A stretch of 64,000 nucleotides of DNA from Corallococcus coralloides DSM 2259 (GTDB taxonomy: Bacteria > Myxococcota > Myxococcia > Myxococcales > Myxococcaceae). This document shows positions 36,402 through 40,665 of this stretch, one piece after another. Position 1 is the stretch's first letter; each line of letters opens with the position of its first letter. Below the pieces are notes generated by a model. The model saw only the letters and a program-made list of their open reading frames with translations, was not told the origin of the DNA and did not search any database. The stretch is from the NCBI RefSeq assembly GCF_000255295.1, contig NC_017030.1:6102328-6166327 (forward strand), given 5' to 3'. The position numbers and the translations under genes are program-made.

Positions 36402-36815
36402 CTATTCCGGCCGTGGCCGCCAGTAAGTGGCGAGAATGACAGGGACCGCCACCCCTGTCACCAGAAGTGCCTGCGCCAGCAGCACCGCCGGTAGCGGGCG
36501 CTGCACATGCACGTACAGCGAGCGGCCGAGCCCCACTCCCAACAGGATGCCCGTCAGCGTGCGCACCGCGTTGGAACCCGAAGCGGGCCGGAAGCGTCCC
36601 ACCGCCCAGTCCACGAGCGCGGGCAGCGTGAGCGCCAGCACCACCGGCACGTCCCACTCCCACCGCAGCGGCGCCTTCAGCGCGAACAGTCCGAGGAACA
36701 CGGCGGCGAGCACCGGATACGTGCCCAGGCACCGCGCGCACACGCGCACGCCCGCGAGCACGTACGTGCGGTTGTACTCATCCGGGTGATGATGGCTGAG
36801 CCAGAACACCGGCAC
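36402..36815 (-). CDS. DUF2085 family membrane protein
   Basis: Motif [28 protein letters not shown] matches the DUF2085 pattern (CHR.P.RS...CARC.G.Y). A GTG start inside the ORF 36402..37103 overlaps the oppF tail by about 38 bp. Confidence 0.5.
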
Positions 36816-37833
36816 CTCCTCCGGACGTGGAAACAGCGGGCCCGTCCTGCACGTTGCGCGAATCCCCTTCGGCCAGGAAGCACGCCGCGGCGTGGCCTCC
36901 ACCCAGGGGATACAGCGGGGGTGACTCGCGGCGGCAGCGCTCCATCGCATGCGGGCAGCGCGGATGGAACGCGCAGCCGGTCGGCGGCGACAGGGGCGAA
37001 GGCGGCTCTCCCGGCAGCAGGAGCCGCGCGCGGGGACGCTCCGGATCCGGCACCGGCACCGCGGACAGCAGCGCCTGCGTGTACGGATGGCGAGGCCCTG
37101 CATACAGCGACCGGGACGGCGCCACCTCCACGATGCGGCCCAGGTACATCACCGCCACGCGCGTGGACACGTACTCCACGATCTTCAGGTCGTGCGCGAT
37201 GAAGACGTACGTGAGCCCGCGCTCGCGCTGCAGGTCCACCAGCAGGTTGACGATCTGCGCCTGGATGGAGACGTCCAGCGCGCTGATGGGCTCGTCCGCC
37301 ACCACCAGATCCGGGCGCAACGCGATGGCACGTGCAATGCCGATGCGTTGACGCTGGCCGCCGGAGAACTCGTGCGGGTAGCGCTGGCGCGCCTCGCGGG
37401 GCAGCCCCATGGCGTCGAGCAGCGCCAGCACCTCGTCCTCGCGCGCCTTCCCCTTCGCGAGCCCGTGGATGGCGAAGGGCTCCGCGAGGATGTCCCCCAC
37501 CGTCATGCGCGGGTTGAGCGACGCGTAGGGGTCCTGGAAGACGAGCTGCATCTGGCGGCGCAGCGGCCGCAACTCGCGCTGCGACAGGCCGGTCAGCTCG
37601 CGCCCGGCCACGCGGATGGAGCCGGAGGTCGGGTCGATGAGGCGCAGCACCGCGCGCCCCAACGTGCTCTTGCCGCAGCCGCTCTCCCCCACCAGGCCCA
37701 GCGTCTCTCCGCGGGCGACTTCGAAGGACACGCCGTCCACCGCGCGCACCGTGCCGCGCGTGCGGCCCAAGAGGCCGCCCTTCACCGGGAAGTGCACCTT
37801 CAGGTCGCGCACCTGGACCAGCGGTTCGCTCAT
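36778..37833 (-). CDS. oppF: Oligopeptide/dipeptide ABC transporter ATP-binding protein (OppF/DppF-like)
   Basis: Walker [10 protein letters not shown], signature FSGGQRQR, and the C-terminal oligopeptide-ABC Cys motif [17 protein letters not shown]. The start MSEPLVQ is internal to the ORF 36778..38313. Confidence 0.8.
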
Positions 37834-38840
37834 GGCGCGGGCACCGGATAATGGCAGGCGGCGGACTGGCCTCCGCGCTTCGGCTCCAGCGCGGGCGTGA
37901 CGCGGGCGCACAGCTCCGAGGCGCGGTCGCAGCGGTCGCGGAACGCGCACCCGGACGGCAGCGCGGTGAGCGACGGCACCATGCCGGGAATGGCCTTCAG
38001 GCGCTGACGCCCACCCTCCACCGCCGCGCCCGCGTCGTGCAGCGACGGGATGGAGCGCAAGAGGCCCGCCGTGTACGGGTGCGCGGGCCGCGCGAACAGC
38101 TCGCGCACCGGCGCCTGCTCCACGATGCGGCCCGCGTACATCACCACCACCGCGTCGCAGCTGCCCGCCACCACGCCCAGATCGTGGGTGATGAGCATCA
38201 CCGCCATGTTCCGCTCGGCCTGCAGGCGCTTGAGCAGTTCCAGGATCTGCGCCTGGATGGTGACGTCCAGCGCCGTGGTGGGCTCGTCCGCGATGAGCAG
38301 CGCCGGGTCGCACGCGAGCGCCATGGCGATCATCACGCGTTGGCGCATGCCGCCGGAGAGCTGATGCGGGTACGCGTCCACGCGCTCGCCGGGCGCCGGG
38401 ATGCCCACCTGCCGGAGCATCTCCACCGCGCGCTCACGCGCCTGCGCCCGGGTGGCGCCCAGGTGCAGCCGGACGCCTTCGCCAATCTGCTCGCCCACGG
38501 TGAACACCGGGTTGAGCGACGTCATGGGCTCCTGGAAGACCATGGCCACGTGCCGGCCGCGCACGCGCCGCATCTCCTTCTCCGGCAGCGCCAGCAGGTC
38601 CTCGCCCCGGAAGCGCACCTCGCCGCCCACCACGCGGCCGGGCGGCTGCGGAACGAGCCGCATCACCGACAGCGCCGTCAGGCTCTTGCCACAGCCGCTC
38701 TCCCCCACCACCCCCAGCGTGCCGCCGGGAGGAACGGTGAAGGACACGCCGTCCACCGCGCGCACCGTGCCGCGCGGGAGCGACAGCTGGGTGACGAGCC
38801 CCCGCACGTCCAGGAGCGGGGCCGGCGCGACGCCGGTCAC
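37830..38840 (-). CDS. oppD: Oligopeptide/dipeptide ABC transporter ATP-binding protein (OppD/DppD-like)
   Basis: Walker A GESGCGKS, signature LSGGMRQR, and C-terminal [21 protein letters not shown] overlap with oppF. Confidence 0.8.
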
Positions 38841-39847
38841 TTCTGGGCCAGCTCCTCCAGGAACTCCGCCTCCTGGATGAGCCCCTTGCGGATGAGCAGG
38901 CGGATGAGGCTCGCGACCATGCGCGCGGGCTTCACCTTCTCCGTGTCCAGGCTGGCCTCCTCGCCGCGCGAGATGCGGTCGATGTCGTCCAGCACCGCCA
39001 GGTCCTCCTCGGAGAAGTCCGGCTTGGGCGTGAGCGCCACGGACGGCTTCACGCCCTGCGCGGCGCCGCCAAAGAGCACCACCGGCACGCGCGGCTTGCT
39101 CGGGTCCTCAGGCTCCGAAGGAGGCGGAGGCGGCGGCGGACGGGCCGCGGCGGGCGGCGGCGGCGGACGCGGGGCCTTGGGGACCTTGGGACGGGGCGTG
39201 GAGCCCAGGATGTCCTCCAGCACCTCCGCGCCGTCGGCACCCGACTCGTTGGGCGGCGGCGGCGGCAGGTCCCAGTCCAGCGTCGGCGGCGCGGGCGGAC
39301 GCGGCGGCGTGGGCGCGCGCGCGGCGGCCGGAGGGGGCGGCGGCGACGGCAGGATGTCCGGCGAATCGTCCTCGTCCATGTCCATCGGTTCAGCCTCCAC
39401 GATGTCCAGGGGCTCGCCCCGGCCGCGCGACAGTGCCTGCTCCAGGTCATCTGGCGCGGCGACGAACACCTTGAGCGGCTTGCGCAGCTGGAAGCGCAGC
39501 TCGTCCACCAGCATCAGGTTGCCCGGGTCTTCCACCGCGACGTGGATCTTCTCGCTGCGGCCGTCCTGCTCCGACGCGAAGAGGAGCACCCGGTGCTCGG
39601 TCTGGAAGTCCATGGACACCAGCGAGGCCACCGCATGCGGGATGTACTCGGGGAGCTCCACGAACGGCAGCTCGTGCTGCGCCGCCAGCGCCCTCGCGAT
39701 GTCCCGGCCGGTGCACAGGCCCATGGACACCAGCACCTCACCCAGCTTGCGGCCCTGGCCGCGCCGTCCGGACGCGAGGGCCTGCTTCACCTGCTCGTCC
39801 GTCACCACTCCGGCCTGGACGAGGAGTTCACCAATCTTCTTGCGCAT
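38837..39847 (-). CDS. MshEN (T2SSE N-terminal) domain protein with Pro-rich linker
   Basis: N-terminal T2SE_Nter domain containing the c-di-GMP-binding-type motif [25 protein letters not shown]. It has no ATPase domain. Confidence 0.7.
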
Positions 39848-39856
39848 GGCCGGGGG

Positions 39857-40606
39857 CTACCGCTTGACCTTGGCGAGGTATTCCTCGCGGGAGAAAACGC
39901 CCTTCTCGATGAGCAGCTCCACCATGGCCTTCAGCGCCGCGACCTCCTTGCGCTGGACCTCTTCCACGCTCTTGAGCAGCTCCGCGGGGCTGCCGGAGGC
40001 CGCTCGAGGCGCCTCCGCAGGGGGGGCCTGACGGGGAGGCGGCGCGGCGGCGGGCTTGGGGGACATGGCGACGGCGGCGGCCGGGTCCAGGTCCTTGAGG
40101 TTCTTCACGACGGTGCGGCCCTGCGCGTCCACCACCTTGAAGTTGGTGTCCGCGTCCTCCAGCTCCGCCGTCTCCTCGTAGAGGCGCGCGAACGCCCGCG
40201 CCACGGAGGTGCGCCCCGCCACGTTGGCCACGATGCGGCACTTGGACAGGGCCCGCAGCTCGTCCAGCACGCGCACGTTGAGCGGGTCCGACATGGCGAC
40301 GACCAGCGTCTTGCCGTCGTCGCGCAGCTGCAGCGGCACCACGGAGAAGTCGCGCGCCGTCTGGGCCGGAATCTTGGCCTTCACGTGCGGCGGGACCATC
40401 TGCACGGAGTCCAGGTTCACCGCCGGCATGCCCAGCTGCTTCGACAGGGCGCGCACGAGGATGTCCTCGGAGACGAGGTTCATCCGGACGAGGATCTCGC
40501 CCAGCTTCCCGCCCCACTTGGCCTGCTCGGCGAGCGCCGCCTTGAGCTGGCTCTCCTGCAGGACGTTCGCCTTGATCAGCAGTTCTCCAAGCTTGATCTG
40601 TGCCAT
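39857..40606 (-). CDS. MshEN (T2SSE N-terminal) domain protein
   Basis: T2SE_Nter domain with motif GKLGEILVRMNLVSEDILVRALSKQ. It is a paralog of the adjacent gene. Confidence 0.7.
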   Translation of the reverse strand: MAQIKLGELLIKANVLQESQLKAALAEQAKWGGKLGEILVRMNLVSEDILVRALSKQLGMPAVNLDSVQMVPPHVKAKIPAQTARDFSVVPLQLRDDGKTLVVAMSDPLNVRVLDELRALSKCRIVANVAGRTSVARAFARLYEETAELEDADTNFKVVDAQGRTVVKNLKDLDPAAAVAMSPKPAAAPPPRQAPPAEAPRAASGSPAELLKSVEEVQRKEVAALKAMVELLIEKGVFSREEYLAKVKR

Positions 40607-40665
40607 GTCGTGCGCGCCATAGTACCCGGTTTGCGCCGGGACGCTGCCTTTCGACGCCTGGAAGC

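What the first reader, a model, noticed from the sequence alone, without database searches (positions are those of the whole stretch)
36402..40606. Orphan OppD/OppF ATPase pair flanked by two MshEN-domain-only proteins and a DUF2085 membrane protein
Two oligopeptide-ABC-type ATPases carry the characteristic C-terminal Cys motifs but have no permease or substrate-binding protein gene nearby. Directly upstream are two paralogous proteins that consist of a T2SSE-N-terminal (MshEN) domain plus Pro-rich tails and no ATPase domain. MshEN domains are known c-di-GMP receptors, and both copies show the RLGxxL...G...LxxxLxxQ-type pattern. This arrangement does not match a standard Opp operon. It may be a c-di-GMP-responsive ATPase module; that reading is an inference.
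Basis: partly seen in the sequence, partly recalled or inferred. Interest (0 to 1): 0.55.

Follow-up and report, generated by a model that had tools for sequence, protein, structure and literature searches.

The report
Peptide-importer ATPases with c-di-GMP sensor partners
This Corallococcus operon is the leftover ATPase half of a peptide ABC importer, still joined to two small predicted c-di-GMP sensor proteins; deeper-branching relatives keep the complete importer with the sensor genes sitting inside it, which points to an undescribed link between c-di-GMP signalling and an Opp-type transporter.

Summary
On the minus strand, 40606..36402, lies one tightly packed operon: MshEN-A (249 aa), MshEN-B (336 aa), OppD-like, OppF-like and DUF2085 (135 aa). 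No OppA/B/C gene or remnant occurs anywhere in the 64 kb window.

The orphan state is derived. In Vulgatibacter and in deeper-branching Myxococcaceae the same operon reads oppA-oppB-oppC-mshEN(-mshEN)-oppD-oppF(-DUF2085). Outgroups have plain oppABCDF. So the MshEN proteins are old built-in accessories of an Opp/Dpp-type importer. The crown group, which includes Corallococcus, Myxococcus and Archangium, lost oppABC from the operon and kept the rest under strong constraint.

Both MshEN proteins pass NCBI's curated 53-residue c-di-GMP-motif model. They fail the strict and relaxed published regexes (Arg to Lys, plus Gly10 to Asn or Gln24 to Gly). Both also carry a conserved C-terminal helical hairpin.

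The M. xanthus orthologues (MXAN_4667-4663) are already catalogued as predicted c-di-GMP binders and as one predicted operon. I found no paper linking MshEN to an ABC importer.

Best model (inferred): c-di-GMP-sensing regulators of OppDF, which now probably serve permeases encoded elsewhere.

Verdict: a new variant of a known kind, of moderate interest.

The parts
39857..40606 (-). MshEN-A: a stand-alone MshEN protein of 249 aa. [quoted passage not shown] Orthologue of M. xanthus MXAN_4667.
   Evidence: Pfam MshEN 5e-15. Aligns to PDB PilB and PilF over about res 4-160 and to MshE over res 5-113. NCBIfam c-di-GMP_motif 64.8 bits against a cut-off of 38. Residues 1-58 and the last ~45 residues are at least 98% invariant in 120 orthologues. 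AF2 model has pLDDT 74.
38837..39847 (-). MshEN-B: a paralogous stand-alone MshEN protein of 336 aa. It has a long Pro-rich linker and the same type of C-terminal hairpin (…[20 protein letters not shown]…). Orthologue of MXAN_4666. It is absent in some relatives.
   Evidence: Pfam MshEN 4e-13. NCBIfam c-di-GMP_motif 58.6 bits. 33% identical to MshEN-A. Site residues G6, L9, G13, L24, L35, G36, G43, L54 and Q57 are invariant or nearly so in 51 orthologues, while overall identity falls to about 41-45%. Missing in L054, L062 and Vulgatibacter.
37830..38840 (-). OppD-type nucleotide-binding subunit of a PepT-family (Opp/Dpp) ABC importer. It has a C-terminal oligo_HPY domain carrying four Cys. Orthologue of MXAN_4665.
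   Evidence: Pfam ABC_tran + oligo_HPY. 1e-100 to E. coli DppD and 1.6e-123 to M. tuberculosis OppD, with Walker A, Q-loop, LSGGMRQR, Walker B and H-loop all intact. These motifs and the four Cys are invariant in 46 crown-group orthologues.
36778..37833 (-). OppF-type nucleotide-binding subunit with an oligo_HPY domain carrying four Cys. Its ATG overlaps the OppD stop codon (ATGA). Orthologue of MXAN_4664.
   Evidence: Pfam. Passes the NCBIfam NF008453 'dipeptide ABC transporter ATP-binding protein' subfamily cut-off (417 against 408). 1e-102 to E. coli DppF. Motifs invariant in 43 orthologues.
36402..36809 (-). DUF2085 small membrane protein of 135 aa. It has an N-terminal His/Cys-rich β-hairpin (HHH…CARC) followed by four TM helices. 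It overlaps the OppF 3' end by 32 nt. Orthologue of MXAN_4663.
   Evidence: Pfam DUF2085 3.5e-10. Start mapped. 120 homologues of 134-150 aa, all those named being Myxococcaceae. AF2 pLDDT 85. Fold search gave only generic helical-bundle hits.
40619..40624 (-). -10-like hexamer TACTAT, 12 nt upstream of the MshEN-A ATG. It implies a nearly leaderless operon transcript.
   Evidence: Sequence read. TAnnnT at the same distance in Corallococcus, Myxococcus and Pyxidicoccus relatives. In M. xanthus a strong transcription start was mapped 5 nt upstream of MXAN_4667 (PMC8844925 supplement). The generic sigma-70 scan found nothing here.

Best explanation
The five genes are the cytoplasmic and regulatory half of an Opp/Dpp-type peptide ABC importer that acquired dedicated MshEN-domain accessory proteins.

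OppD and OppF form a catalytically intact heterodimeric ATPase. MshEN-A and MshEN-B are soluble proteins. Their N-terminal MshEN domain most likely binds c-di-GMP. Their conserved C-terminal helical hairpin, held on a flexible Pro-rich linker, most likely docks on the OppDF dimer, or on the transporter's cytoplasmic face. That would gate ATP hydrolysis and transport according to c-di-GMP level.

Ancestrally the genes were arranged as oppA-oppB-oppC-mshEN-oppD-oppF. That state survives in Vulgatibacter and in deeper-branching Myxococcaceae. In the crown group, including this Corallococcus and M. xanthus, oppABC was deleted from the operon, the remainder gained its own promoter, and OppDF probably energises PepT-type permeases encoded elsewhere.

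Shown: gene content, operon structure, the ancestral complete operon, conservation of catalytic and ligand-site residues, and a transcription start plus viable mutants in M. xanthus (from the literature).
Inferred: c-di-GMP binding, the MshEN-OppDF contact, the direction of regulation, and the identity of the present permease partner.
For: 1. MshEN genes sit between oppC and oppD in complete operons in nine independent loci: L055, L059, L061, L063, L077, L082, L083, L086 and Vulgatibacter L079. The gap from oppC to mshEN is 12-86 nt. The nearest outgroups, L081 and L087, have plain oppABCDF.
2. All 57 related loci long enough for the OppD+OppF comparison (plus the window) carry oppD-oppF; of the 57, 56 contain a MshEN gene beside them, the exception being outgroup L081.
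3. Genes overlap from mshEN-B to DUF2085. M. xanthus 'Operon 24' runs from MXAN_4667 to 4662, with a transcription start at -5.
4. Both MshEN proteins pass the curated c-di-GMP-motif model. Wang et al. 2016 place MXAN_4666 and MXAN_4667 in the same supplementary-table column as the proven binders MshE and PA3740, opposite a column holding V. cholerae PilB and GspE; the column header was not read, so 'predicted binder' is my inference from that contrast (PMC5013675 supplement).
5. Site residues are invariant although MshEN-B otherwise diverges.
6. The C-terminal LLIxKGVxxxxE[FYW] hairpin is conserved from Vulgatibacter to Corallococcus in both paralogues.
7. After loss of oppABC, OppD and OppF keep Walker A/B, the Q-loop with its following helical subdomain (the part that contacts permease coupling helices), the signature motif, the H-loop and all Cys. 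These are invariant in 43-46 crown orthologues.
8. M. xanthus has PepT-family permeases elsewhere: MXAN_2019/2020 and MXAN_6552 (PMC3924187 supplement). Only three ABC ORFs are listed at MXAN_2018-2020. The MXAN_2020 insertion mutant shows the same significant traits as the MXAN_4664 mutant: soft-agar swarming, fruiting-body circularity and sporulation (PMC4103005 Table S1).
Against: - No binding or interaction data exist for any of these proteins.
- The window's MshEN proteins fail both the strict and the relaxed published motif regex.
- The MXAN_4665 insertion mutant, which should be polar on MXAN_4664, showed no significant phenotype. The phenotype match with MXAN_2020 is therefore weak evidence, and such p-values are common in that table.
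- I could not read MXAN_2018-2020 or MXAN_6551-6554, so I do not know whether they lack their own ATPases.
- oppABC appears to have been lost from the operon more than once while MshEN-OppDF-DUF2085 was kept. That also fits a role independent of transport.
- Most of the synteny evidence comes from one family in which the whole region is collinear.
Confidence: 0.55

Rival explanations
1. Exaptation. In the crown group the MshEN-OppDF-DUF2085 set no longer transports anything. It works as a c-di-GMP-gated ATPase anchored by DUF2085, and it signals to, or powers, something else. The obvious candidates are the adjacent ECF sigma/anti-sigma pair and the Kil (Tad-like) predation machinery next door.
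For: - oppABC is absent in all 46 crown loci and apparently also lost separately in L056 and in L054/L062, while MshEN-A, OppD, OppF and DUF2085 are always kept.
- DUF2085, the ECF sigma factor, the zf-HC2 anti-sigma factor and Kil cluster II genes follow directly in nearly all Myxococcaceae loci.
- There is precedent for non-transport ABC ATPases of this sequence neighbourhood: PhnK of C-P lyase is hit at 1e-41.
Against: - Vulgatibacter has the MshEN-Opp operon without DUF2085, the ECF pair or Kil genes.
- The Q-loop and helical subdomain that contact permease coupling helices stay invariant.
- MXAN_4662 has its own transcription start.
- Published definitions of kil cluster II stop at MXAN_4661/4662.
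- The whole region is collinear in this family, so adjacency alone is weak evidence.
- DUF2085 gave no informative fold match.
Confidence: 0.22
2. The MshEN proteins are structural adaptors or assembly factors of the transporter and do not sense c-di-GMP. The MshEN fold would be used only as a protein-interaction module, as in GspE/XpsE N-domains that bind GspL.
For: - In the window's proteins Arg is replaced by Lys in all four half-sites.
- MshEN-A has Gly10 to Asn. MshEN-B has Gln24 to Gly and a 6-residue spacer.
- Neither protein matches the relaxed regex of Wang et al. 2016.
- Non-binding MshEN domains are documented (XpsE, V. cholerae PilB and GspE).
Against: - Both proteins score well above the curated cut-off of the c-di-GMP-motif profile.
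- None of the changes that disable XpsE (G11V, I19R, L29R, R38G, G40L, L54H, L58C, Q61V) is present.
- Most MshEN-B orthologues have Arg in site 2 and Gln, Lys or Arg at position 24.
- Mutating Arg9 or Gln32 of MshE changed affinity less than five-fold according to the paper.
- The 58-residue site of MshEN-A is the most conserved part of the protein.
Confidence: 0.18
3. The ATPase genes are a decaying, functionless remnant of a broken opp operon, and the MshEN neighbours are coincidental.
For: Loss of the cis-encoded OppA/B/C. The MXAN_4665 mutant has no phenotype.
Against: - All reading frames are intact.
- OppD and OppF are 63-98% identical to the window's proteins across the loci compared, and 55-56% of positions are at least 97% invariant within the crown group, including every catalytic motif.
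- The genes are expressed in M. xanthus at hundreds to over a thousand normalised reads, with a strong transcription start.
- MshEN genes lie inside the intact operon in nine loci (see the best explanation).
Confidence: 0.03

Closest known systems
Canonical Opp/Dpp (PepT family, TC 3.A.1.5) peptide ABC importers, e.g. E. coli DppABCDF/OppABCDF and M. tuberculosis OppABCD
   Same: - OppD and OppF here have the ABC_tran + oligo_HPY architecture, all catalytic motifs and the C-terminal four-Cys signature.
- They match E. coli DppD/DppF at E = 1e-100 to 1e-102.
- Relatives have the full oppA (SBP_bac_5 lipoprotein), oppB and oppC genes in the same operon.
   Different: - One or two MshEN-only genes are inserted between oppC and oppD.
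- A DUF2085 membrane protein follows oppF in Myxococcaceae.
- In the window's lineage the binding protein and both permeases are missing from the operon and from the 64 kb around it.
MshEN-domain c-di-GMP receptors: V. cholerae MshE, T. thermophilus PilF, PilB, E. coli NfrB
   Same: - Full MshEN_N + MshEN_C fold.
- Two tandem 24-residue half-sites with the conserved Leu, Gly and Gln positions.
- In known cases the domain controls an ATPase or a glycosyltransferase.
   Different: - Here the domain is a separate polypeptide with no enzymatic domain.
- It carries a Pro-rich linker and a family-specific C-terminal hairpin.
- Its presumed target is an ABC-type ATPase pair rather than a T2SSE/PilB-type hexameric ATPase.
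- Arg is replaced by Lys at the start of the half-sites in this genome.
Trans- or domain-mediated regulation of ABC-importer ATPases: EIIA-Glc on MalK (inducer exclusion) and c-di-AMP on the CBS domains of OpuCA
   Same: A cytoplasmic signal is read at the nucleotide-binding subunits of an importer to switch uptake. This comparison rests on my own knowledge of these systems and serves as an analogy for the mechanism only.
   Different: - A different signal (c-di-GMP), a different sensor fold and a different transporter family.
- No interaction has been shown here.
M. xanthus MXAN_4667-MXAN_4663 (the orthologous operon)
   Same: Same five genes in the same order, 55-86% identical.
   Different: What is on record:
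- The two MshEN genes appear in a c-di-GMP receptor catalogue (Wang 2016).
- They appear in an RNA-seq and transcription-start table as 'Operon 24' (Kuzmich 2022).
- The two ATPase genes are among 180 ABC insertion mutants (Yan 2014).
None of the papers I could search discusses the operon, its Opp ancestry or its function.

Membership tests
MshEN domain (Pfam PF05157; c-di-GMP receptor family of Wang et al. 2016) | MshEN/T2SSE_N fold: an N-terminal four-helix bundle plus the C-terminal alpha/beta subdomain | tested here: met
   Pfam 5e-15 and 4e-13. Alignment to PDB PilB over the first ~145-160 residues, to PilF over ~115-144 per repeat, and to MshE over the first ~110-135 residues. AF2 model of MshEN-A is confident for res 1-145.
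MshEN domain (c-di-GMP-binding subset) | [quoted passage not shown] | tested here: not met
   Neither the strict regex nor the relaxed regex of the paper matches either protein. Deviations are K for R four times, N for G10 in MshEN-A twice, G for Q24 in MshEN-B site 1, C at position 12 and a 6-residue spacer in MshEN-B.
MshEN domain (c-di-GMP-binding subset) | Profile-level match to the 53-residue binding site (NCBIfam NF053729, cut-off 38 bits) and absence of the known disabling substitutions | tested here: met
   64.8 and 58.6 bits across all 53 profile positions. The Gly, Leu and Gln positions whose change disables XpsE are retained. They are conserved in orthologues.
MshEN domain (c-di-GMP-binding subset) | Measured c-di-GMP binding | not testable with these tools
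   Needs DRaCALA, ITC or DSF on purified protein.
PepT-family (Opp/Dpp) ABC importer | Two nucleotide-binding subunits with ABC_tran + oligo_HPY domains and intact Walker A, Q-loop, LSGGQ, Walker B and H-loop | tested here: met
PepT-family (Opp/Dpp) ABC importer | Two BPD_transp_1 permeases and an SBP_bac_5 binding protein encoded with the ATPases | tested here: not met
   Absent from the window and from all 46 crown-group loci. Present directly upstream in nine deeper-branching loci. No orthologous OppB from a named crown-group species appears among the best 120 homologues, which reach down to 46% identity.
PepT-family (Opp/Dpp) ABC importer | Peptide transport activity, and association of OppDF with a permease | not testable with these tools
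   Needs uptake assays or co-purification. Candidate partners in M. xanthus are MXAN_2019/2020 and MXAN_6552.
T2SS/T4P secretion ATPases (GspE/PilB/MshE) | C-terminal T2SSE (PF00437) hexameric ATPase domain | tested here: not met
   No T2SSE hit in either MshEN protein at E <= 0.01. After residue ~145 both proteins consist of a linker plus a short hairpin.
DUF2085 (PF09858) | Pfam profile match, a small multi-pass membrane protein with a CxxC-containing N-terminus | tested here: met
   3.5e-10, 40.6 bits against a cut-off of 25. Four TM helices plus a β-hairpin carrying C24 and C27.
Kil (Tad-like) predation system, cluster II | Tad/Flp pilus components, or a genetic requirement for contact-dependent killing | tested here: inconclusive
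   The operon lies next to KilB/G/H, an Flp pilin, FHA proteins and the MXAN_4661-like anti-sigma factor. However, none of the five proteins has a Tad-related domain. The published cluster ends at MXAN_4661/4662. Vulgatibacter has the MshEN-Opp operon without Kil genes.

The most novel reading that the evidence does not exclude
After losing its permeases and binding protein, apparently more than once, the MshEN-OppDF-DUF2085 set became a c-di-GMP-gated ABC-type ATPase machine that no longer imports peptides. Anchored by DUF2085, it would control the neighbouring ECF sigma/anti-sigma pair or the Kil Tad-like killing apparatus. That would tie c-di-GMP to contact-dependent predation in myxobacteria.
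Probability: 0.15. Interest if true: 0.8.

Novelty: new variant of a known kind. Interest (0 to 1): 0.58.

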